From contig JAZNCT010000065.1 of the NCBI GenBank assembly GCA_045587665.1, forward strand, positions 95 through 64,094: a DNA stretch of 64,000 nt. Reading direction: 5' to 3'. A model generated the notes under the pieces. It searched no databases and was not told where the DNA came from. It was given only the letters and a program-made list of their open reading frames with translations. The DNA comes from Eubacteriales bacterium. Lineage in GTDB: Bacteria; Bacillota; Clostridia; Oscillospirales; CAG-272. Shown one piece after another: positions 4,706 to 48,127 of this stretch; position 1 is the stretch's first letter; each line of letters begins with the position of its first letter. The position numbers were made by a program, and so were the translations under genes.

Positions 4706-6106
4706 GTGAAAAAAAGCTTGTTTGCGCCTACGGATATGACCGTTGGCACACCTTGGAAAAGTATTGTTATGTTTACCCTGCCTATGCTTATAGGCAACAT
4801 CGCTCAGCAGCTATACAACACTGTAGACAGTATTGTTGTTGGGCAGTATATCGGAGATAATGCGCTGGCTGCTGTTGGCAGTGCAGGTCCGATAGTCAAT
4901 CTTCTTCTCGTTCTCTTTATAGGAATCTCTGCCGGAACAAATGTTATGATCTCTCAATATTTCGGGGCAAAAAACAGAGAAAGCCTTTCCTATACCGTTG
5001 GAAATTCCATTACGGTAACCGCCATTGCTTGCATACTTCTTATGCTTCTTGCAACACCTTTTATAAGACCTCTTCTCGTTGTGCTCAACACCCCCGAAAC
5101 TCTTATTGAAGGCTACAATGATTATACCATTCTCGACGCCTGCACAGAATATCTCACCATTTCTGTTATCGGAGTTGCCGGTATGGCTTTTTATAATATT
5201 CTCAGCAGCATAATCCGTGGAATGGGAGATTCGGTTTCGGCACTTATATATCTGCTTGTGGCAACAGTGGTAAACATAGCTCTTGATATTTATTTTGTTG
5301 CTGTTCTCAGAATGGGCGTTGGCGGCGTTGCTCTTGCAACGGTTATTGCGCAGATCATCTCATCGGGGCTTTGCCTTCTAAAGCTTGCAAAAATGAAGGA
5401 GCATTTTGATTTCAAGCTGAAACATCTTCGCCCTTCCTCTCTTTTTGTTAAAACTATAATACGCCTCGGTCTGCCTGCAGGCCTTACACAGGCTATATTT
5501 TCCTCTGCAATGATCATCGTTCAGTCACTTACAAACTGCTTTGAAGAGCAGTTCATTGCTGCAAACGTTGTCATTATGAGAGTTGACGGCTTTGCCATGA
5601 TGCCAAACTTTTCTTTTGGCACAGCTCTAACAACATATGCCGGCCAAAATGTTGGTGCAGGCCTATATGACAGGGTTAAAAAGGGCGCAAAGCAAGGCAC
5701 GCTGATTGCAGTTGGCGTTTCAAGTGCCATAACGGTTCTTATTCTGCTTTTCGGAAAAAATCTCATGTGGCTTTTTACAGACACAAAAGAGCTTGTTGAA
5801 ATGAGCTATAATCTGATGCTCATTTTGGCAGTCGGATATATCGCCATGGCCGTTACTCAAAGTCTTTCGGGAATAATGAGAGGAGCAGGCGACACAGTGA
5901 CACCTATGTGGATATCCCTTATCACAACTGTTGCCGTGCGTGTCCCAATTGCATACGGAATCTCATATCTCACAAGAACTCCCTCTCTGCCCTACGGTAT
6001 AAAGGAATGTATTCAGATATCGCTTCTTTCATCATGGGTTATCGGAGCTATCCTTACTGTCATCTTCTACTGCGGTGGAAAGTGGCAGAAAACTGCTATT
6101 CAATAA
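4706..6106 (+). CDS. MATE family efflux transporter
   Basis: 466-aa polytopic membrane protein. N-terminal MATE signature PMLIGNIAQQLYNTVDSIVVGQYIG. GTG start with GAGG RBS. Confidence 0.85.
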   Translation: MKKSLFAPTDMTVGTPWKSIVMFTLPMLIGNIAQQLYNTVDSIVVGQYIGDNALAAVGSAGPIVNLLLVLFIGISAGTNVMISQYFGAKNRESLSYTVGNSITVTAIACILLMLLATPFIRPLLVVLNTPETLIEGYNDYTILDACTEYLTISVIGVAGMAFYNILSSIIRGMGDSVSALIYLLVATVVNIALDIYFVAVLRMGVGGVALATVIAQIISSGLCLLKLAKMKEHFDFKLKHLRPSSLFVKTIIRLGLPAGLTQAIFSSAMIIVQSLTNCFEEQFIAANVVIMRVDGFAMMPNFSFGTALTTYAGQNVGAGLYDRVKKGAKQGTLIAVGVSSAITVLILLFGKNLMWLFTDTKELVEMSYNLMLILAVGYIAMAVTQSLSGIMRGAGDTVTPMWISLITTVAVRVPIAYGISYLTRTPSLPYGIKECIQISLLSSWVIGAILTVIFYCGGKWQKTAIQ

Positions 6107-39205: not shown

Positions 39206-39234
39206 AATTATTACCTCCTATTGTTAGTATATAT

Positions 39235-39263
39235 ATTATACTACAAAATATGTGCATTGTCAA
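39235..39263 (-). promoter_or_regulatory. promoter of dinJ-yafQ
   Basis: Minus strand reads TTGACA ATGCACATATTTTGTAG TATAAT. The ATGCACAT directly after the -35 is also present in the 45.8-kb switch promoter. Confidence 0.6.
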
Positions 39264-41982: not shown

Positions 41983-43879
41983 AATTAAAAAGCTAAATGC
42001 CGCCATAACAAAAGCCGTTGCCGGCATGAAGCCTCCCGAAAATCTCACTGTTTCAGAATGGGCGGACAAGCACCGCCGTCTTTCACCCGAGGCATCAGCG
42101 GAGGTCGGTCAGTGGAGAACGAGCAGGACGCCTTATCTGCGTGAGCCTATGGATGCTTTCACCGATCCGAAGGTGAGGCGAATCGTTGTTTGGGCATCGT
42201 CTCAGGTCGGAAAAAGTGAAATGCTTAACAATATGGTCGGCTATGCCATATCCGAAGATCCTTCAAGCATTCTGTTCATTCACCCGACGAAGGATGATGC
42301 GAGAGGCTATTCAAAGCTCCGCATCGCGCCGATGATACGGGACTGCAAGCCTTTGAAAAGTAAGGTTGCGGAAGCAAAAAGCCGCGATTCCGGAAATACG
42401 ATACTTCAAAAATCCTATCCCGGCGGTATACTCACGCTTTGCGGATCGGGTGAAGCACATGATCTTTGCTCGAAGCCCATTCGTTACATATTCGGTGACG
42501 AGCGAGACCGCTGGGAGGCTTCAGCCGGAAACGAAGGCGACCCCTGGGAGCTGGCAAGAATACGACAGCTGACCTTTTACAACTCGAAGGCTGTTGAAGT
42601 ATCAACACCGACAATAAAAGGTGCCAGCAACATCGAGAAATCCTACAATGAGGGCACGATGGAGCGTTGGTGCAACAGATGCCCTCATTGCGGAGAATAC
42701 AGCGAGATAACCTTTGAGCAGATACGCTTTGAATATACCGAGAGCAAGGTCGGAAACGCAAAAGCCTTTGATGTTGCGGATATATTCTATATTTGCCCCG
42801 AGTGCGGCGGTGTTTCCACCGAGCATGAAATAAAGGCTCAGGATGCGAAATGGATCGCAGATAATCCCGATGCGTATGCGCAGAATCAGACACGCTCATT
42901 CAGACTTACTTCATGGGTATCTCCTTGGGCTTCATGGAAATCGAGCATTATCGAATATCTCAAAGCTCTCGGAGATCCCGAAAGGATGCAGGTCGTTTAC
43001 AACACCCGTTTCGGTCTGCTGTGGGAAAACCGAGGAGAGATCGAGAGTGAGAACAGCATCCTCAGCCGCCGTGAGGACTATGGAACAAACGAAAGCGGCG
43101 AGCCGATAGAGCTTCCCGACGGCGTTTTATGCCTCACTTGCGGAGTTGACACCCAGGATGACCGACTTGAATATGAGGTGGTCGGATATCGACATTTCGG
43201 CGAGAACTGGGGCATCAAAAAAGGTATTATCATGGGGCGTCCTGATACCGATGCAGTATGGAATGAGCTTGATACCGTTATCGATCACGTTTATCGATAC
43301 AAAAGCGGCACGGGTCTTAAAATATCAATGACATTCGTTGACGAAGGCGGACATTTCACAAATGAGGTTCGCCAAAGATGCCGCGAACGTCTCGGAAAAA
43401 AGGTGTTTCCCATAAAAGGCAAGGGCGGCGATGTTCCCTATACCTCTCCACCGAAAAAACAGAAGATCGTTATCGGCGGCAGGTTTATCGGCACATGCTG
43501 GTGGTATCAGATTGGCGTCGATTCGGGAAAGCATATCATTATGGCTAATCTCAGAGTGCAGGAGCCCGGCAGCAAATACTGTCATTTTCCTATCCGGGAT
43601 GATTATGGGCCGGCATATTTCAAAAGTCTTCTTTCCGAGGCGAATGTCTATGATCAGAAAACAAAAAAATTCGTCTGGAAAAAGATCCCCGGTCATGAGC
43701 GAAACGAAGCACTTGACTGCCGAAATTATGCAAACGCCGCCGAAAGGATGTTATCGCCCGATTATGACGCGCTTGAACGCCGTTTGAGAGGGAATACACA
43801 TATAACATCGGCCGCAGCACCAAAGCGTCCGCCTCAAGTTCGAAAAAAGCCAAACAAAAACCATTTCAGTGATTGGTAA
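41966..43879 (+). CDS. terminase large subunit, lambda GpA family
   Basis: 637 aa with TVSEWADKHRRLSPEAS...WRTSRTPYLREPMD and Walker-like SSQVGKSE. Confidence 0.85.
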   Translation: MMTTSEIKKLNAAITKAVAGMKPPENLTVSEWADKHRRLSPEASAEVGQWRTSRTPYLREPMDAFTDPKVRRIVVWASSQVGKSEMLNNMVGYAISEDPSSILFIHPTKDDARGYSKLRIAPMIRDCKPLKSKVAEAKSRDSGNTILQKSYPGGILTLCGSGEAHDLCSKPIRYIFGDERDRWEASAGNEGDPWELARIRQLTFYNSKAVEVSTPTIKGASNIEKSYNEGTMERWCNRCPHCGEYSEITFEQIRFEYTESKVGNAKAFDVADIFYICPECGGVSTEHEIKAQDAKWIADNPDAYAQNQTRSFRLTSWVSPWASWKSSIIEYLKALGDPERMQVVYNTRFGLLWENRGEIESENSILSRREDYGTNESGEPIELPDGVLCLTCGVDTQDDRLEYEVVGYRHFGENWGIKKGIIMGRPDTDAVWNELDTVIDHVYRYKSGTGLKISMTFVDEGGHFTNEVRQRCRERLGKKVFPIKGKGGDVPYTSPPKKQKIVIGGRFIGTCWWYQIGVDSGKHIIMANLRVQEPGSKYCHFPIRDDYGPAYFKSLLSEANVYDQKTKKFVWKKIPGHERNEALDCRNYANAAERMLSPDYDALERRLRGNTHITSAAAPKRPPQVRKKPNKNHFSDW

Positions 43880-43919
43880 TTGGTTCATGGTTCATGGTTT
43901 TTGGATCACCGACAACGGC

Positions 43920-43998
43920 TTCTCGGTTCGTCGACCACTGCTTGCAAGCAAGTCTTACACGATCTCCCCGAGCGTAAATTTGGATGATCCCCACCCTA
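43920..43998 (-). repeat. IS end repeat, tnpB-distal (RE side); candidate omega-RNA scaffold region
   Basis: 79 bp, beginning at the tnpB stop codon on the minus strand. CTCGG...CCGAG and GCTTGCAAGC stems. Confidence 0.6.
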
Positions 43999-45108
43999 CT
44001 GTAAAATTCGCAATCCTTCGTTAAGGATATTCCTTGCGGCGTTAATATCACGGTCATGCACAGCTCCGCACACAGGACAGGTCCATATGCGAACGGACAA
44101 ATCCTTTGTTCCGCTCCACTGTGCGCCGCATGAGGAACAAAGCTGGCTTGACGGATAGAAACGGTCAACGGTGGATAGTTGTTTACCATACCACTTTGCT
44201 TTATATTCCAGCAATCTGCGAAATTCTCCCCAGCTCGCATCTGATATTGATTTTGCGAGCCTGTGGTTCTTTTCGAGATTTTTTACCGCTAAATCTTCGA
44301 TGCAGATCACATCATATTGCCTCATTAGCTCGGTTGACAGCTTTTGAAGCATATCGCTACGCTGTGCAGATATATGCTCATGAAGCTTTGCCACTGCAAT
44401 TCTCGCTTTTTCCCGGCGGTTACTGTCCTTTTGTTTTCGGGACAACCGCCTCTGAAGACGTGCAAGACGCTTTTCGGCTTTGAGGTAGTGCCGCGGATTG
44501 GGGTATTCTATACCATCGGATGATATGGCAAAGTTACTCAGCCCCATATCAAGCCCCACGGCTTTTCCTGTAGGTGGAAGTTTGTCAATCTCCACATCGG
44601 TACAGCATATGGCAACATAATACCTGCCCGACGGTCGCTGTGAGACTGTTGCAGAAAGGATTCTGCCCTTCACTTCCCTTGATACACTGCATTTGACATA
44701 ACCGAGCTTTGGGAGCTTAACAGCTGTATCGGTTACGGCAATATTGCTGCCCGAAGCACCGCTTTTATAGCTCTTGTTTCGGTCATACTTGCTTTTGGAT
44801 TTCGGATAACCCGCAGGCTTGCCGGACTTTAAGGTTCGAAAGAAGTTTTTGTATGCTGCATCAAGATTTTTCAAAGAATACCGCAGGGCAGTCAAATCCA
44901 CCTCTTTGAGCCATTCAAGCTCTTTTTTCAGCTGGGTAAGGTCTTTGAAGCACGCAAAGTAATTCATTGTTTCTTTTGTGCTTTCATAGACCTTTATGCG
45001 CTTATCGAGATAGTAGTTATAGACAAAGCGGCAACAGCCGAAGGTGCGCTGTATTTGGTTTATTTGTTCGTTATTCGGATAAATTCGAAATTTGTATGAG
45101 TACTCCAT
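43996..45108 (-). CDS. tnpB: TnpB (IS605 OrfB-type RNA-guided endonuclease)
   Basis: [16 protein letters not shown]-terminus, RuvC residues in VGLDMGL, ICIEDL and [11 protein letters not shown], and zinc ribbon CSSCG...CPVCG. Confidence 0.9.
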
Positions 45109-45109
45109 A

Positions 45110-45340
45110 TCAGCTGCTTAACCTATGCATTTTGACGGGTTTGGATAGAATTTTATCAAATTCGCAATTTACGTATTCGCAGAACGGAATACCTTGCTTT
45201 GTGGCTTCTTCCTTGAAACACTCGTAGCGTTCCTTGTCAAAAAGAAGCTCTGCAAAGAGAAAGATTTTTTTGATTTGTTTCTCATCAAGGGTTAAATAAG
45301 CTTGTTCAACGAGAGTTTTAACTTCTTCTTTGAGTGTCAT
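45110..45340 (-). CDS. 76-aa protein translationally coupled to tnpB (not a TnpA)
   Basis: GGAGG RBS. Its stop TGA is 1 nt before the tnpB ATG. No HUH/Y1 motifs and no family recognised. Confidence 0.55.
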
Positions 45341-45377
45341 TTTGATACCTCCAAAAAATTATGCTTGTTGACGCAAA

Positions 45378-45456
45378 TTCTCGGTTCAACGACTACAGCT
45401 TGCAATCAAGTCTTACACAATCTCCCCGAGCGTAAATTCGGGTGCGTCCCACCCTA
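45378..45456 (-). repeat. IS end repeat, upstream (LE side)
   Basis: Same orientation as 43920-43998. Ends 37 nt upstream of the 76-aa ORF start. Confidence 0.6.
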
Positions 45457-45469
45457 TTTGAATTTACTA

Positions 45470-45498
45470 TTGACAAGTTCCGCCTTTTATGGTATAAT
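45470..45498 (+). promoter_or_regulatory. consensus promoter of candidate sRNA
   Basis: TTGACA, 17 nt, TATAAT. Confidence 0.6.
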
Positions 45499-45504
45499 GG
45501 AGGC

Positions 45505-45590
45505 AATCGGAGGAGTAAGGCTTCCCCCGATGCCCCTTTGGGTTATAGTGAGTGATTTCCTTTGCGGGCGGTGTCACTCACTATTTTTTT
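45505..45590 (+). ncRNA. candidate ~86-nt sRNA (two hairpins, second is an intrinsic terminator)
   Basis: Hairpin 1 pairs GGCAATCGGAGG with CCCCCGATGCC. Terminator atagtgagtga/tcactcactat plus T7. No credible ORF, because the terminator lies inside the only candidate frame. Confidence 0.5.
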
Positions 45591-45593
45591 ACC

Positions 45594-45716
45594 CTAATTG
45601 TTTTCATTGAGTAGCTTTTGAACTGATACCTTAAGCTCTTCAAGTGTTTCGCACTTGTCGATAAGCTCAAGTACCATTTTCAAAATGTACTCGGTATGAG
45701 TTGCCATCTCATCCAT
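45594..45716 (-). CDS. 40-aa helical protein, divergent from XRE gene
   Basis: AGGAAGTGAGGAA RBS. Product is MDEMATHTEYILKMVLELIDKCETLEELKVSVQKLLNENN. Own consensus promoter. Below the track cutoff. Confidence 0.45.
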   Translation of the reverse strand: MDEMATHTEYILKMVLELIDKCETLEELKVSVQKLLNENN

Positions 45717-45762
45717 TTCCTCACTTCCTTTCATAGCGGGTATCCCCGTGCCTTACACCTAT

Positions 45763-45870
45763 ATTATACACCTTTGAATGTGCATAGTCAAGATGGAATT
45801 GTGCACAAACTTTTGTGTATATTTTTGTGCACAATGTACACTTGAAAATGTGCACATTGCATAGTATAAT
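45763..45870. promoter_or_regulatory. divergent promoter pair with four TGTGCAC-core operators
   Basis: Minus promoter: TTGACT (45791-86), 17 nt, TATAAT (45768-63). Plus promoter: TTGAAA (45842-47), 17 nt, TATAAT (45865-70). Palindromes TTGTGCACAA (45799-808 and 45825-34), ATGTGCACAT (45848-57), and the variant ATGTGCAT (45778-85). Confidence 0.6.
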
Positions 45871-45899
45871 ATATTCATCTGGAAAGGAGGAATCAGAGA

Positions 45900-46121
45900 A
45901 TGTCATTGTCTCACAAAATTGACATACTATCGGCACTAAAAGAAGCAGGTTATTCTACTTATAGACTCAGAAAAGAAAAAATTTTCGGTGAGGGAACTAT
46001 TCAAAAATTCCGAAACGGTGGTTGTATAGACTGGGAAGTATTAGATCGTTTGTGTAATCTTCTTAACTGTCAGCCCGGAGATATATTGGAATACGCAAAA
46101 GAAGAAAACGGAGAGGAATGA
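45900..46121 (+). CDS. XRE-family HTH regulator (73 aa)
   Basis: The pattern ...STYRLRKEKIFGEGTIQKFRNGGCIDWEVLDRLCNLLNCQPGDILEY is typical of short HTH_26/YozG-like regulators. AAGGAGG RBS. Confidence 0.75.
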   Translation: MSLSHKIDILSALKEAGYSTYRLRKEKIFGEGTIQKFRNGGCIDWEVLDRLCNLLNCQPGDILEYAKEENGEE

Positions 46122-46134
46122 CCTCTCCGTTTTG
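46108..46134 (+). terminator. terminator of the XRE gene
   Basis: Stem acggagagg/cctctccgt followed by ttt. Confidence 0.65.
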
Positions 46135-46211
46135 CATATCAAATTTAAACGAAAGGATATTGTTTTATATCCCCATAGTTAAATCACGGGGATAAAGCAA
46201 GAAATAATGTT

Positions 46212-46466
46212 TTGACAAGCCAAGAAGCAAAGCTCCTGTGTGAGCATTATACAACGCTTATAGAAAAGCTTATGGCGGCAAAGATTGCTCTCATAGACGG
46301 CGGTGTTCAGAGCTACACCATAGACGGTCGTTCGCTGACAAAATTTGATTTAGACAAGCTCTCAAAAGAGATTGACGATGCCGTAAAAAAAAGAGACGAA
46401 TACCGTGCGCTTGCAAACGGCGCACGGCCGAGAAAGGCTTTTGGAATTATTCCAAGAGACTTTTAA
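46212..46466 (+). CDS. head-tail joining protein, lambda gpW-like
   Basis: 84 aa with YTIDGRSLTKFDLDKLSKEIDD. Lies between terL and portal, as in lambda. TTG start with a weak RBS. Confidence 0.55.
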   Translation: MTSQEAKLLCEHYTTLIEKLMAAKIALIDGGVQSYTIDGRSLTKFDLDKLSKEIDDAVKKRDEYRALANGARPRKAFGIIPRDF

Positions 46467-46570
46467 TTCTCGGAGCATAAAAAGGTATTCAGCGCAATGC
46501 GCTTAATACAAGCGATCCTCTCGGGTTTTCTCTCCTTTGTCCGAGAGGGTCGCAAACTATATATAGGACG

Positions 46571-48127
46571 GTGATTATCACGAATAATAAAGCAAAAAAA
46601 GCACCAAATGCAAGCGGCTACAGCGATGCGGGCGCAAGCACGTCAAAACGGTCGCTTAGTGGATTTATTGCGAGAAGCAGCGCGCCGTTTCAGGACATAG
46701 ATTTCAACAACAGAACTATGAGACAGCGCGCCCGTATGATCTATATGTCAACGCCTGTTGCGGCGTCCGCTATCAACACCAACAGAACAAAGGTGGTTGG
46801 AACGGGTCTGCACATGCGTTGCGCCATAAACAGAGATATTCTCGGGCTCTCGGAAAACGCCGCAAAGGAATGGCAGAAGAAAACCGAAGCCGAATTTCGC
46901 ATGTGGGCAAAAAACAAACGGAGCTGTGACGCTCTCGGACTTAATAATTTCTATGGACTGCAACAGCTCGCTGTCAAATCATGGCTCATGTCGGGTGACT
47001 GCTTCGCTTTGTTTAAGCGTTATGATGCGACAAAGATGAACCCCTATACTCTGCGCATCCACATGATAGAGGCTGACCGCATAGCAACGCCTACAGATGC
47101 CGGCTTATCCATCGTGGGAAATACCGTTGGAAAGAATTCGAAGAACGGCAACAGGATATTTGACGGAGTTGAGGTAGACAAAAACAATCAAGTCGTTGCA
47201 TATCACATCAGAAGCACATATCCCGGGCAACTGCTAAGCGAAAAGACAGAGTGGTATAGAATTCCCGCCGTAGGAGAGGAAACAGGGCTTCCGAACATAC
47301 TTCAGATAATGGACGCTGAGCGTCCCGATCAATACAGAGGCGTTACATATCTCGCCCAGGCAATAGAACCGCTCCTTCAGCTCCGCAGATATACCGAAGC
47401 ACAGCTTATGGCGGCGATAATTCAGTCCTTCTATACCGCATGGATCGTAACCGAAAGTGCGTCGAATGAAATTCCCTTCGGCGAGGTGGGCGGCGGAGGT
47501 ATGTCGGGTAATCCCGATGATCAGCCCGAAGAGGTAAGCGATAGCGAGAACGAATACGAGCTGGGGCCCGGTACGGTCGTTCATCTCAAAGAAGGCGAAA
47601 AGATAGAATTCGGCAATCCCAACATTCCTACAGCCGGATTTGACGTGTTCTTCAAAGAAATGTGCAAACAGCTCGGAAGCGGTCTTGAAATGCCCTATGA
47701 CGTTCTCATGAAAGAGTTTAATTCTTCTTACAGTGCCGCCAAAGGCGCGCTTGAAGAAGCCTGGGAAGCCTTCAAAATGCGCCGTGTATGGCTCGTTGAC
47801 GATTTCTGTCAGCCTGTATACGAGACTTGGTTATCCGAAGCCGTTGCTATCGGCAGAATTAAAGCTCCGGGATTCTGGAATGATCCGCTGATAAGAGAGG
47901 CTTGGTGCTCTGCGCGTTGGGACGGCCCTGCACAGACACATCTTGACCCTGTCAAAGAAGCGGCAGCAAATAAGATTCTTGTTTCTCAGGGGTGGAAAAC
48001 AAACGAGCAGGTCACAAGAGAATTCTACGGCGGCAGTTTTGATGAAAATGTCGAAACGCTGATCAGAGAAAACGAAAAATTAAAGGCGGCAAACGATGCC
48101 GCGGGAGGTATGAACAATGCAAAATAA
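46571..48127 (+). CDS. portal protein, lambda gpB family
   Basis: 518 aa, sitting after gpW. Family call rests on size, order and recalled similarity. Confidence 0.75.
   Translation: MIITNNKAKKAPNASGYSDAGASTSKRSLSGFIARSSAPFQDIDFNNRTMRQRARMIYMSTPVAASAINTNRTKVVGTGLHMRCAINRDILGLSENAAKEWQKKTEAEFRMWAKNKRSCDALGLNNFYGLQQLAVKSWLMSGDCFALFKRYDATKMNPYTLRIHMIEADRIATPTDAGLSIVGNTVGKNSKNGNRIFDGVEVDKNNQVVAYHIRSTYPGQLLSEKTEWYRIPAVGEETGLPNILQIMDAERPDQYRGVTYLAQAIEPLLQLRRYTEAQLMAAIIQSFYTAWIVTESASNEIPFGEVGGGGMSGNPDDQPEEVSDSENEYELGPGTVVHLKEGEKIEFGNPNIPTAGFDVFFKEMCKQLGSGLEMPYDVLMKEFNSSYSAAKGALEEAWEAFKMRRVWLVDDFCQPVYETWLSEAVAIGRIKAPGFWNDPLIREAWCSARWDGPAQTHLDPVKEAAANKILVSQGWKTNEQVTREFYGGSFDENVETLIRENEKLKAANDAAGGMNNAK

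What the first reader, a model, noticed from the sequence alone, without database searches (positions are those of the whole stretch)
45594..46134. Self-contained mini genetic switch (XRE + 40-aa protein) with palindromic TGTGCACA operators inside the head module
Two consensus promoters diverge from a 110-bp region. It contains TTGTGCACAA twice (45799-808 and 45825-34), ATGTGCACAT once (45848-57, in the spacer of the rightward promoter), and the variant ATGTGCAT (45778-85, in the spacer of the leftward promoter). Rightward lies a 73-aa XRE regulator with its own terminator. Leftward lies a 40-aa amphipathic protein. The symmetry, with one operator in each promoter spacer and two between them, is that of a bistable CI/Cro-type switch. 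Yet it sits between terL and gpW beside an IS, far from the real immunity region. It may be cargo that arrived with the IS, a remnant of another element, or the controller of the DinJ-YafQ promoter, which carries the same box.
Basis: seen in the sequence. Interest (0 to 1): 0.6.

Follow-up and report, generated by a model that had tools for sequence, protein, structure and literature searches.

The report
Repressor-plus-antisense-RNA gate on a phage TnpB insertion
The small "switch" is real but not free-standing: with a previously overlooked antisense RNA it forms the control end of a 2.3-kb insertion carrying the RNA-guided nuclease TnpB, and the same undescribed control module turns up in more than 160 gut-phage and metagenome loci with many different repressors.

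Summary
Three exact TGTGCACA palindromes lie within 57 bp, against 29 in the whole 1.73-Mb genome. There are two near-consensus divergent promoters, an HTH_26 (XRE-type) gene and a 40/46-aa ORF.

- A relative with 88% terL identity has terL and gpW 11 nt apart. So 43880-46211 is a single insertion holding both the switch and TnpB.
- In four sister contigs the order is XRE <-> small ORF -> convergent sRNA -> 76-aa ORF -> TnpB -> omegaRNA scaffold.
- The small ORF is not Cro-like. It is a conserved two-helix protein (dN/dS about 0.06).
- In 164 of 165 usable relatives the small ORF is followed by an antisense sRNA gene. This gene has its own promoter and terminator and a hairpin with an invariant loop (GUAAGGCU).
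- The divergent regulator and its operators are hypervariable across relatives (XRE, HTH_26, Arc/RHH types).

Best reading: the XRE represses P_L and its own promoter, and the sRNA adds a second, post-transcriptional block. Together they gate downstream cargo, which here is TnpB and its guide RNA. It resembles known repressor-plus-antisense systems (pCF10 prgX/prgQ/Anti-Q, IncI/IncB leader ORF with pseudoknot, inc18 CopR/RNAIII). As a family it is undescribed and has no Rfam or Pfam entry.

The proposed link to the DinJ promoter remains untested.

The parts
43880..43902 (.). Junction between the terL stop and the element. It holds GGTTCA-t-GGTTCA-tggttttt, which repeats the outer end of the scaffold and looks like a footprint of earlier insertions.
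   Evidence: Alignment A1. Compared with the junctions in L002 and L022.
43903..43998 (-). omegaRNA/right-end scaffold, copy 1, directly 3' of the tnpB stop. The last 16-17 nt (43903-43919) form a fixed guide-like tail that travels with the element.
   Evidence: 79-nt direct repeat with 45378-45456 at 86% identity. Homologous to the sequence after tnpB in L011 and L022.
43996..45108 (-). TnpB, 370 aa, with the RuvC motifs GLDMG, IEDL and DRDINAARN present.
   Evidence: Pfam HTH_OrfB_IS605, OrfB_IS605 and Cas12f1-like_TNB, all above cut-off. Translation.
45110..45340 (-). 76-aa ORF that ends one base before the tnpB start. It has its own GGAGG ribosome-binding site and no family match.
   Evidence: Conserved at 99% next to tnpB in L022-L025.
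45378..45469 (-). Solo scaffold, copy 2 (short form, 45378-45456), plus the junction tttgaatttacta. It is inserted between the sRNA promoter and the 76-aa ORF and is absent from sister contig L022.
   Evidence: The same junction is seen in modules A, B and C of the relative contig.
45470..45498 (+). Promoter of the antisense sRNA, TTGACA-17-TGnTATAAT (12 of 12 positions). It is convergent with P_L.
   Evidence: Conserved in relatives.
45505..45590 (+). Antisense sRNA of about 86 nt. It has a 5' hairpin with the invariant loop GTAAGGCT (45515-45522) and a terminator hairpin plus T-run (45545-45590) that ends at the stop codon of the small ORF.
   Evidence: No Rfam match.
45594..45734 (-). Conserved small ORF, 46 aa (40 aa from the ATG at 45716). 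Predicted two-helix hairpin.
45749..45756 (-). Leader motif GTAAGGCA, 6 nt after the P_L -10, at the predicted 5' end of the mRNA.
   Evidence: Present at this exact position in 149 of 164 relatives that carry the loop.
45763..45791 (-). P_L, TTGACT-17-TATAAT. The half-operator ATGCACAT (45778-45785) lies in its spacer.
   Evidence: Spacer palindromes are enriched in homologous promoters.
45799..45857 (.). Three palindromic operators: TTGTGCACAA at 45799-45808, TTGTGCACAA at 45825-45834, and ATGTGCACAT at 45848-45857 in the P_R spacer.
45842..45870 (+). P_R, TTGAAA-17-TATAAT, which drives the XRE gene.
45900..46121 (+). 73-aa XRE-type regulator of the HTH_26 family.
   Evidence: 863 homologues. 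99-100% identical in L022, L023 and L025.
46103..46148 (.). Constant right end of the cassette, GAAAACGGAGAGGAATGACCTCTCCGTTTTGCATATCAAATTTAAA. It encodes the ..ENGEE* tail and forms the hairpin. It is invariant behind three different regulators.
   Evidence: Alignment A2. Hairpin.
46149..46211 (+). Element-derived leader in front of gpW. gpW now starts at TTG 46212. The native RBS and ATG seen in the empty site have been replaced.
   Evidence: A remnant of the original gpW start is kept beside terL in L022.

Best explanation
The XRE gene, its TGTGCACA operators and the two divergent promoters make up the specificity half of a three-part control module. The other half is constant. It comprises a transcript that starts with GUAAGGCA, a conserved 40-aa ORF, and directly behind that ORF a convergent gene for an ~86-nt antisense sRNA with its own strong promoter and terminator.

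The module gates whatever lies downstream of the small ORF. In this prophage lineage that cargo is a 76-aa ORF, TnpB and its omegaRNA scaffold. The whole 2.33-kb unit is one insertion into the terL-gpW junction.

Proposed working:
- The XRE dimer binds the palindromes. It represses P_L through the box in the P_L spacer and the box 7 nt upstream of its -35. It also represses its own P_R.
- Any P_L transcript that escapes must cross the convergent sRNA promoter and pair with the sRNA. Pairing would start at the hairpin loop GCCUUAC/GUAAGGC. This blocks or destabilises the part of the mRNA that carries the cargo.
- In most relatives the same loop can also pair with a GUAAGGC copy 24-25 nt downstream, just before the cargo RBS. 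This suggests competition between a pseudoknot and the antisense RNA, as in IncI/IncB plasmids.

Net effect: the nuclease and its guide RNA are kept silent in the lysogen. They can be expressed transiently when repressor and sRNA are absent, for example on entry into a naive cell.

Shown: the anatomy, the single insertion, the conservation and covariation of the RNA, the coding selection on the small ORF, and the variability of regulators and operators.

Inferred: binding, repression, the mode of sRNA action, read-through into tnpB, and the timing.
For: - **Single insertion.** L027 (terL 88% identical) has the terL stop, 11 nt, then the gpW ATG.
- **Operon order.** In four samples (L022-L025) the order is XRE <-> 46 aa -> sRNA gene -> 76 aa -> TnpB -> scaffold. 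The RBS of the 76-aa ORF lies 14 nt from the sRNA -35.
- **No promoter or strong terminator between P_L and tnpB.** On the minus strand no other consensus promoter was found between 45763 and 45110. No strong terminator lies between 45594 and 43996.
- **Two other phage types.** In L011-L014 a divergent HTH_26 and small ORF head an operon whose last gene is TnpB, with only a 13-nt gap before it. L003 shows the same layout with a 'type A' small ORF and a 21-nt gap.
- **Conserved RNA motifs.** 164 of 165 usable small-ORF loci carry the invariant loop. 147 have the complementary GTAAGGC 24-25 nt further on. 149 have GTAAGGCA 6 nt after the -10.
- **sRNA structure.** All 82 distinct sRNA variants have a terminator hairpin plus T-run in the antisense orientation, with 31 arm types. 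The stems around the loop covary (6.9 contiguous pairs against 3.9 in shuffles).
- **Hypervariable regulators.** Regulators and operators differ beside a constant small ORF and sRNA (alignment A2; 101 distinct divergent ORFs, some probably spurious). Spacer palindromes are enriched, 42% against 14%.
- **Operator-regulator pairing.** TGTGCACA clusters occur only with this XRE lineage.
- **TnpB looks active.** The RuvC motifs are intact and the Pfam domains are complete.
Against: - No transcript data.
- The window copy is rearranged relative to L022. A solo scaffold sits between the sRNA promoter and the 76-aa ORF. The downstream partner of the loop is reduced to AAGGC. The post-transcriptional part may therefore be impaired here.
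- TnpB lies within the fetched flanks (at most about 6 kb downstream) in only 9 of 180 loci holding the small ORF. The module is therefore not TnpB-specific.
- The relative contig CAYPKQ010000049.1 keeps three or four cassettes with intact regulators and no cargo. This suggests that the regulator and sRNA may themselves be the payload.
- The 16-nt tail after the scaffold does not match the empty site. The genome has no Y1 transposase and only one copy of the element. A homing role for TnpB is therefore not demonstrated.
Confidence: 0.55

Rival explanations
1. Cross-immunity payload. The cassette's useful products are the repressor and the sRNA themselves. Expressed from the prophage, they would shut down the early operon of incoming phages or other mobile elements that use the same operator type and the same leader and sRNA target. 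TnpB would be only a passenger.
For: - In L011-L014 and L003 the same architecture heads early-type operons with Sak and M78 peptidase genes.
- The relative contig holds three or four cargo-less cassettes with three different intact regulators.
- The sRNA loop is invariant across all relatives, so a kissing contact with foreign targets is conceivable.
- The sRNA promoter is a perfect consensus, as expected for constitutive expression.
Against: - No locus among about 230 fetched uses TGTGCACA operators or this XRE at a true early operon. No target is therefore known.
- The sRNA stems differ between lineages, so full pairing in trans would be limited.
- The four sister contigs keep the TnpB cargo.
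Confidence: 0.17
2. Self-contained bistable CI/Cro-like switch. The XRE and the 40-aa protein antagonise each other at shared operators, independently of the neighbouring genes.
For: Divergent promoters each have one box in the spacer, with two further boxes between them.
Against: - The 40-aa protein has no DNA-binding family match. It is predicted as a bare two-helix hairpin.
- It is nearly identical next to XRE, HTH_26 and RHH regulators that have unrelated operators.
- It is always followed by the sRNA gene, and usually by cargo.
Confidence: 0.08
3. Type I toxin-antitoxin-like addiction module. The small protein would be a toxin. The convergent sRNA would be its antitoxin. The XRE would add transcriptional control.
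For: - A small ORF with a convergent sRNA that ends at its stop codon resembles 3'-overlapping type I pairs of Firmicutes prophages (from general knowledge).
- The location on mobile elements fits.
Against: - The protein is acidic and amphipathic with no hydrophobic segment.
- The sRNA does not overlap the ORF or its RBS. It overlaps the intergenic region before the next gene.
- A downstream gene starts about 125-140 nt after the ORF in most loci with enough flank.
Confidence: 0.06
4. Inert relic. The cassette is decaying debris of an old insertion and has no present function.
For: - The window copy is rearranged by the solo scaffold insertion.
- The element is single-copy with no transposase in the genome.
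- In L002 the copy after gpW has a truncated small ORF and one degenerate box.
Against: - The XRE is 99-100% identical in four other samples.
- Both promoters, the sRNA promoter and the terminator match the consensus.
- The small ORF is under strong purifying selection.
- All three exact palindromes are retained.
Confidence: 0.1

Closest known systems
pCF10 prgX / prgQ / Anti-Q control of conjugation in Enterococcus faecalis (from general knowledge)
   Same: A repressor acts together with a small ORF at the head of a long operon. A counter-transcript from a convergent promoter limits expression of the downstream genes. Convergent transcription can make the system switch-like.
   Different: - The regulator here is a 73-aa HTH_26 protein transcribed divergently, not an RRNPP peptide receptor overlapping its target.
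- The small ORF has no signal-peptide character.
- The sRNA has its own promoter downstream of the ORF.
- No attenuator terminator is visible on the sense strand.
IncI-alpha (ColIb-P9) and IncB (pMU720) replication control: repY/repZ or repB/repA with Inc RNA / RNAI
   Same: Shared features are a leader ORF, a hairpin whose loop can pair with a complementary stretch just upstream of the next gene's RBS, and an antisense RNA covering that hairpin. PMC8053102 summarises that the antisense RNA blocks leader-peptide translation and the formation of a pseudoknot needed for RepZ translation. Here the loop GCCUUAC has the complement GUAAGGC 24-25 nt downstream in 147 of 164 relatives.
   Different: - There is no sequence relationship.
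- The leader ORF here is a strongly conserved protein, not a mere coupling device.
- A DNA-binding repressor with operators is added.
- The cargo is not a replication gene.
- The pseudoknot is inferred only. In the window itself the partner is reduced to 5 nt.
inc18 plasmids (pIP501 CopR plus RNAIII), from general knowledge
   Same: A small transcriptional repressor and an antisense RNA from a convergent promoter give dual negative control of one downstream gene.
   Different: RNAIII acts by transcription attenuation in a leader that has no ORF. No attenuator is visible here, and a conserved small protein is present.
Controller (C) proteins of restriction-modification systems (from general knowledge)
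   Same: A small XRE-family HTH protein binds palindromic boxes in or next to promoter elements. This delays or limits expression of a nuclease when the mobile unit enters a new cell.
   Different: C genes are usually co-transcribed with the nuclease and act as activator then repressor. Here the XRE gene is divergent, no activation is evident, and an sRNA layer is added.
IS200/IS605-family TnpB-omegaRNA elements (Meers et al., PMC10055086; IStron conflict, PMC10690162)
   Same: TnpB has complete domains followed by a conserved 3' scaffold. The element sits in a conserved intergenic junction, as expected for elements maintained by homing.
   Different: - There is no TnpA in the element or the genome.
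- There is no recognisable left end directly upstream of tnpB.
- tnpB is embedded as the last gene of a regulated operon.
- A fixed 16-nt tail travels with the scaffold.
- Solo scaffolds are attached to cargo-less regulatory cassettes.

Membership tests
XRE-type regulator, Pfam HTH_26 (PF13443) | Profile match above the curated cut-off over the whole domain | tested here: met
   49.3 bits against a cut-off of 22; residues 12-67 cover profile positions 5-62 of 63. 863 homologues all carry PF13443.
CI/Cro-type bistable switch | Two divergently transcribed DNA-binding repressors that antagonise each other | tested here: not met
   The leftward product has no HTH, Pfam or PDB match. It is predicted as a two-helix hairpin. 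The same protein accompanies unrelated regulators.
CI/Cro-type bistable switch | Repeated operators shared by back-to-back promoters | tested here: met
   Four boxes: one in each promoter spacer and two between the promoters.
CI/Cro-type bistable switch | Controls the phage's own early lytic operons from the immunity region | tested here: not met
   The unit lies inside a 2.33-kb insertion between terL and gpW that is absent from L027. Downstream of P_L are the 76-aa ORF and tnpB.
IS200/IS605 family element | TnpB with RuvC and TNB domains followed by a conserved right end / omegaRNA scaffold | tested here: met
   Pfam domains. The scaffold is conserved after tnpB in L011 and L022.
IS200/IS605 family element | Y1 (HUH) transposase TnpA in the element or in trans | tested here: not met
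   PF01797 was not found in the 95%-complete genome, although the control genomes were positive.
IS200/IS605 family element | Guide (the flank after the right end) matches the vacant donor site next to a TAM | tested here: inconclusive
   The 16-nt tail CCGTTGTCGGTGATCC does not match the empty site of L027. In L022 the flank beyond the tail is the antisense of the old gpW start. The TAM is unknown.
Antisense-RNA / leader-ORF / pseudoknot control (IncI-alpha, IncB type) | Separate antisense RNA gene with its own promoter and terminator covering a hairpin of the leader | tested here: met
   At sequence level only. The promoter matches 12 of 12 positions. All 82 variants have terminators and covarying stems. 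Expression could not be tested.
Antisense-RNA / leader-ORF / pseudoknot control (IncI-alpha, IncB type) | Hairpin loop complementary to a stretch just upstream of the regulated gene's RBS | tested here: inconclusive
   Met in 147 of 164 relatives and in L022. A second module type has loop CAACCGCC with GGCGGT downstream, but only two examples were seen. In the window only AAGGC remains.
Type I toxin-antitoxin | Small hydrophobic or membrane toxin whose mRNA is paired by the antisense RNA | tested here: not met
   The protein is acidic and amphipathic. The sRNA ends at the stop codon and covers the intergenic region.
Any described RNA family (Rfam 15) | Covariance-model match | tested here: not met
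   Only sub-threshold chance hits (mir-242_2, NrrF) were found in 43500-46600 at E up to 1.

The most novel reading that the evidence does not exclude
Gut Clostridia phages and other mobile elements share an undescribed, portable tight-expression platform. Its parts are a swappable small repressor with matching spacer operators, an mRNA starting with GUAAGGCA, a conserved 40-aa two-helix protein, and a convergent sRNA whose invariant loop competes with a cis pseudoknot partner. Compact cassettes of this platform spread through the intergenic gaps of phage late operons. In this lineage the platform times an RNA-guided nuclease (TnpB plus omegaRNA) so that it fires on entry into a new cell and stays silent in the lysogen, as a weapon between phages or a homing device.
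Probability: 0.3. Interest if true: 0.8.

Novelty: new variant of a known kind. Interest (0 to 1): 0.62.

Why it matters
If the reading holds, it matters in four ways.
- It would be a natural example of an RNA-guided nuclease placed under a dedicated repressor-plus-antisense-RNA gate. How TnpB expression is controlled in its native elements is largely unknown, and I found no paper describing such a control.
- It defines a widespread module: at least 160 loci in IMG/VR and metagenomes, plus two inducible prophages of a cultured Flavonifractor plautii strain. The module has sharply conserved RNA motifs and has no Rfam or Pfam entry. In GenBank phage records it is currently annotated on the wrong strand.
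- The constant RNA and small-ORF half combined with interchangeable repressor/operator halves is a natural set of orthogonal tight switches for Firmicutes.
- It explains why small 'immunity-like' switches turn up inside structural gene modules of gut phages.

Tried and rejected
- **DNA search against GenBank phages.** A distant-mode search with 43850-46600 gave no match.
- **Other copies in the genome.** I looked for more copies of the element, the sRNA or the scaffold. Each is single-copy, apart from the second scaffold copy inside the element itself.
- **Rfam.** Nothing was found.
- **PDB sequence searches.** The XRE gave no hit. The small-ORF profile hit only designed helical proteins.
- **Other TGTGCACA sites as XRE targets.** The only other close pair lies upstream of an nrdD-like gene. 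I read it as tandem NrdR boxes (from knowledge of the NrdR consensus) and rejected it as a target.
- **DinJ-YafQ link.** The exact DinJ protein is not on record elsewhere. No fetched locus encodes DinJ or YafQ, and none carries the box outside P_L. The link is untestable here. By my rough estimate the shared 8-mer after the -35 has a chance probability of a few percent.
- **More examples of the second ('type A') small-ORF/sRNA type.** These were wanted to test loop-partner covariation. The protein-based scan found none. The DNA pattern scan returned only coding false positives.
- **Target-site rule for the cassettes.** GAAAGGA lies beside several ends but not all. No rule was derived.
- **Group I intron (IStron) reading.** I considered it for the insertion in a late operon. 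No intron model matched.
Full report
**1. Observation**

- TTGTGCACAA lies at 45799-45808 and 45825-45834. ATGTGCACAT lies at 45848-45857. The shorter ATGTGCAT lies at 45778-45785.
- The promoter scan finds TTGAAA-17-TATAAT on the + strand (45842-45870) and TTGACT-17-TATAAT on the - strand (45791-45763). Both match 11 of 12 positions.
- One box lies in each promoter spacer and two lie between the promoters.
- Exact TGTGCACA occurs four times in the window, three of them here.
- In the whole 1.73-Mb assembly it occurs 29 times against about 24 expected. The only other close pair lies upstream of an nrdD-like gene. I read that pair as tandem NrdR boxes, unrelated to this finding.
- The rightward 73-aa ORF is an HTH_26 protein above Pfam's cut-off.
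- The leftward ORF has no family match. It does have 15 homologous clusters at 67-96% identity.
- Its core evolves with dN/dS of about 0.06, so it is a real protein. AlphaFold predicts a two-helix hairpin with mean pLDDT 87.

**2. The switch is part of one insertion together with TnpB**

- A viral contig with 88% terL identity (L027) has the terL stop, 11 nt, then the gpW ATG. The 2.33 kb from 43880 to 46211 is therefore one insertion.
- Read on the minus strand the insertion contains, in order: P_L; the small ORF (45734-45594); the antisense of an sRNA gene; a solo scaffold copy (45456-45378); a 76-aa ORF (45340-45110); tnpB (45108-43996); and a conserved scaffold directly after the tnpB stop (43998-43903).
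- The XRE gene is transcribed the other way from P_R.
- Four contigs from other samples (L022-L025) carry the same insertion at the same site without the solo scaffold. There the RBS of the 76-aa ORF follows the sRNA promoter's -35 by 14 nt.
- On the minus strand there is no other consensus promoter between P_L and the 76-aa ORF. There is no strong terminator between the small ORF and the end of tnpB.
- TnpB has all three Pfam domains. The RuvC motifs GLDMG, IEDL and DRDINAARN are visible in the translation.
- The genome holds one copy of the element and no Y1 transposase.

**3. The overlooked third component: a convergent sRNA gene**

- Directly behind the small ORF lies a perfect TTGACA-17-TGnTATAAT promoter (45470-45498). 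It points back at the ORF.
- About 86 nt follow it. They contain a 5' hairpin and a terminator hairpin whose T-run ends at the ORF's stop codon.
- I fetched 160 further loci that encode the small ORF from IMG/VR and metagenomes.
- Of 165 usable instances, 164 have the octamer AGCCTTAC downstream of the ORF stop, mostly about 60-70 nt away (sRNA sense: GTAAGGCT).
- The octamer is the loop of a hairpin whose stem covaries. There are 18 inner-arm types, and 6.9 contiguous pairs on average against 3.9 in shuffles with a maximum of 4.6.
- All 82 distinct variants have a hairpin plus T-run in the antisense orientation, with 31 different arm sequences. A -10 box sits directly upstream.
- These features are those of a transcribed, terminated antisense RNA family. 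Rfam has no match.

Two more copies of the loop's complement are positioned precisely.
- GTAAGGC lies 24-25 nt after the loop in 147 of 164 loci. This is inside the sRNA promoter spacer and 12-30 nt before the RBS of the next gene.
- GTAAGGCA lies exactly 6 nt after the -10 of the promoter that drives the small ORF in 149 of 164 loci. This is the predicted 5' end of the mRNA. The background expectation is 0.02 per 80 nt.
- A second, rarer module type has a different small ORF and a loop CAACCGCC (L003) or AACAAACCGCC (L002 module A), with GGCGGT / GGCGG at the corresponding downstream place. Loop and partner therefore change together. With only two examples this is a hint, not proof.

**4. The repressor half is interchangeable**

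- A relative contig from an uncultured Lachnospiraceae MAG (loci L002, L008, L009) has cassettes after terL, after gpW, after the capsid gene and after the sheath gene.
- The window has empty sites after its capsid and sheath genes.
- Alignment A2 shows three segments:
  - a constant left arm holding the scaffold, the sRNA gene, the small ORF and the P_L -10;
  - a variable middle;
  - a constant right end, GAAAACGGAGAGGAWTGACCTCTCCGTTTTGCATATCAAATTTAAA, which encodes the last residues (..ENGEE) of each regulator and forms the hairpin.
- The variable middle holds one of three regulators. The first is this XRE with TGTGCACA boxes. The second is an XRE 59% identical with different inverted repeats. 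The third is an Arc/RHH-type protein with TTGCGCAA-type palindromes (PHROG 'Arc-like repressor').
- Across all loci the nearest divergent ORF gave 101 distinct sequences. They include RHH, HTH_3 and HTH_26 types, and some are probably spurious.
- The promoter spacers are hypervariable and enriched in palindromes: arms of 5 or more in 42% against 14% of shuffles.
- TGTGCACA clusters occur only where this XRE lineage is present. This pairing of operator and regulator is the best available sequence evidence that the XRE reads these boxes.

**5. What the module controls**

- In most loci with enough flank a co-directional gene starts about 125-140 nt after the small ORF.
- The cargo differs between loci: Amidoligase_2, a serine recombinase, unknown proteins of 180-210 aa, and Sak-containing early operons.
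- TnpB is the last gene of the operon in L011-L014 and L003. It is the main cargo in the window lineage. TnpB is found in only 9 of 180 loci holding the small ORF.
- The module is therefore a general gate. TnpB is its cargo in this lineage.
- Two cultured examples exist, both inducible prophages of Flavonifractor plautii from the OMM12 consortium (PMC10197239):
  - Castelnaud has the module with an Arc-like repressor.
  - Chenonceau has the module inside its head module, antisense to the structural genes as in the window, with a 65-aa cargo and a terminator.
- In both GenBank records the small ORF and sRNA region is covered by ORFs called on the opposite strand.

**6. Mechanism**

Shown:
- the anatomy and the single insertion;
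- the covariation and conservation of the RNA;
- coding selection on the small ORF;
- the co-variation of regulator and operator.

Inferred:
- The XRE represses P_L and P_R through the boxes.
- The sRNA acts on the P_L transcript between the small ORF and the cargo. Possible routes are promoter collision, duplex formation, or blocking the pairing of the loop with its downstream partner.
- tnpB and its scaffold are expressed only by read-through from P_L.
- Expression is transient on entry into a cell that lacks repressor and sRNA.

The role of the 40-aa protein is unknown. It stays the same next to unrelated regulators, which argues against a specific anti-repressor. I favour a role tied to the RNA half, but without evidence.

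The window copy differs from L022 in two ways. A solo scaffold has been inserted, and the sRNA promoter spacer is of the 'type A' kind. The loop partner is thereby reduced to AAGGC. The post-transcriptional layer may be weakened in this copy.

**7. Comparison with known systems**

- In how it works it is closest to known combinations of a repressor with an antisense RNA. These are pCF10 prgX/prgQ/Anti-Q, inc18 CopR/RNAIII, and the IncI-alpha/IncB leader ORF with pseudoknot and antisense RNA (summarised in PMC8053102).
- In logic it also resembles controller proteins of restriction-modification systems.
- It is not a member of any of these families by sequence.
- It fails the defining feature of a CI/Cro switch, because there is no second repressor.
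- It fails the defining feature of a type I TA pair, because the protein is not hydrophobic and the sRNA does not cover the ORF.
- The TnpB part meets the protein and scaffold criteria of IS200/IS605 elements. It lacks TnpA, a left end next to tnpB, and a guide that matches the vacant site.
- Literature searches found no description of this module or of repressor/antisense control of tnpB.

**8. DinJ link**

- The DinJ-YafQ promoter reads TTGACA-ATGCACAT-9 nt-TATAAT. P_L reads TTGACT-ATGCACAT-9 nt-TATAAT.
- The 14-mer TTGACWATGCACAT occurs only at these two places in the genome. ATGCACAT alone occurs 4 times in the window against about 2 expected.
- The DinJ promoter also has its own palindrome over the -10 (TTGTTAGTATA / TATACTACAA), which would serve for autoregulation.
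- No relative carrying this TA pair was found. Cross-regulation remains possible but untested.

**9. Verdict**

- The feature is one instance of an undescribed but widespread three-part control module, here attached to TnpB inside a single insertion in the head module.
- Novelty: a new variant of a known kind of control.
- Interest is moderate to high.
- Earlier first-reader notes on the neighbouring IS, sRNA, 76-aa ORF and DinJ promoter, and on look-alike modules in two other genomes, agree with the anatomy. They were used as leads only.

Noticed in passing
own genome, contig C20, 18940-18990 (outside the window): Two TGTGCACA-containing boxes lie 32 bp apart upstream of an nrdD-like gene (its N-terminus resembles an ATP-cone). 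They look like tandem NrdR boxes and are unrelated to the XRE.
   Followed up: partly
L003 4130-4410 and L002 3370-3600: A second 'type A' version of the module. It has a different small ORF (..KRLIEYLKS.xWSDxxIVxLLxYI..) and a different sRNA. The sRNA loop is CAACCGCC (L003) or AACAAACCGCC (L002), with its complement GGCGGT / GGCGG downstream. In L003 the GTAAGGCA leader lies 6 nt after the -10, as in the main type; the L002 copy is degenerate. No further examples were found.
   Followed up: partly
L003 4868-4945: A solo omegaRNA-type scaffold lies directly upstream of, and co-directional with, an XRE gene 81% identical to the window's. That XRE has no TGTGCACA boxes. Scaffolds and this XRE lineage keep turning up together.
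   Followed up: no
window 46149-46215; L022 7150-7185: gpW now starts at TTG 46212, overlapping a two-codon mini-ORF (ATGTTTTGA). L022 keeps a remnant of the original gpW RBS and start (ATGACTAAAGACGAATT) between the element and terL. The insertion therefore hit the 5' end of gpW and supplied a replacement start.
   Followed up: partly
window 43880-43902: GGTTCA-t-GGTTCA repeats the outermost bases of the scaffold tail. This looks like footprints of repeated insertion or excision at the same spot.
   Followed up: no
window 43903-43919; L002 3246-3262; L008 (module B): The same 16 nt (CCGTGGTCGGTGAACC or CCGTTGTCGGTGATCC on the minus strand) follows the scaffold at different insertion sites. 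In L011 and in two short-form copies it is absent. A fossil guide seems to travel with the cassette, which argues against canonical right-end cleavage.
   Followed up: partly
L018-L021: Four of the contigs that carry one small-ORF variant were inspected. All four end at the small ORF stop or about 60 nt beyond it, inside the sRNA hairpin region. This suggests an assembly break at a repeated or polymorphic sequence.
   Followed up: no
L229 (ON453903) 500-860; L230 (ON453904) locus 4930-5415: In the GenBank records of Flavonifractor phages Castelnaud and Chenonceau, the small ORF, the sRNA gene and the cargo ORF are covered by hypothetical ORFs called on the opposite strand.
   Followed up: partly
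window 39217-39247: The DinJ-YafQ promoter has its own inverted repeat, TTGTTAGTATA / TATACTACAA, over the -10. This is a plausible autoregulatory operator independent of the shared ATGCACAT box.
   Followed up: no
window 43996-46121 versus L022: Between the window and L022 the XRE is 100% identical and the 76-aa ORF 99%, but TnpB is only 93% identical. This points to mosaic recombination inside the insertion.
   Followed up: no
window 45560-45590 and 46105-46133: The insertion places two terminator-like hairpins on the + strand between terL and gpW/portal. Late transcription must read through them. This fits the antitermination checkpoint upstream of terS that an earlier first-reader note proposed.
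   Followed up: no
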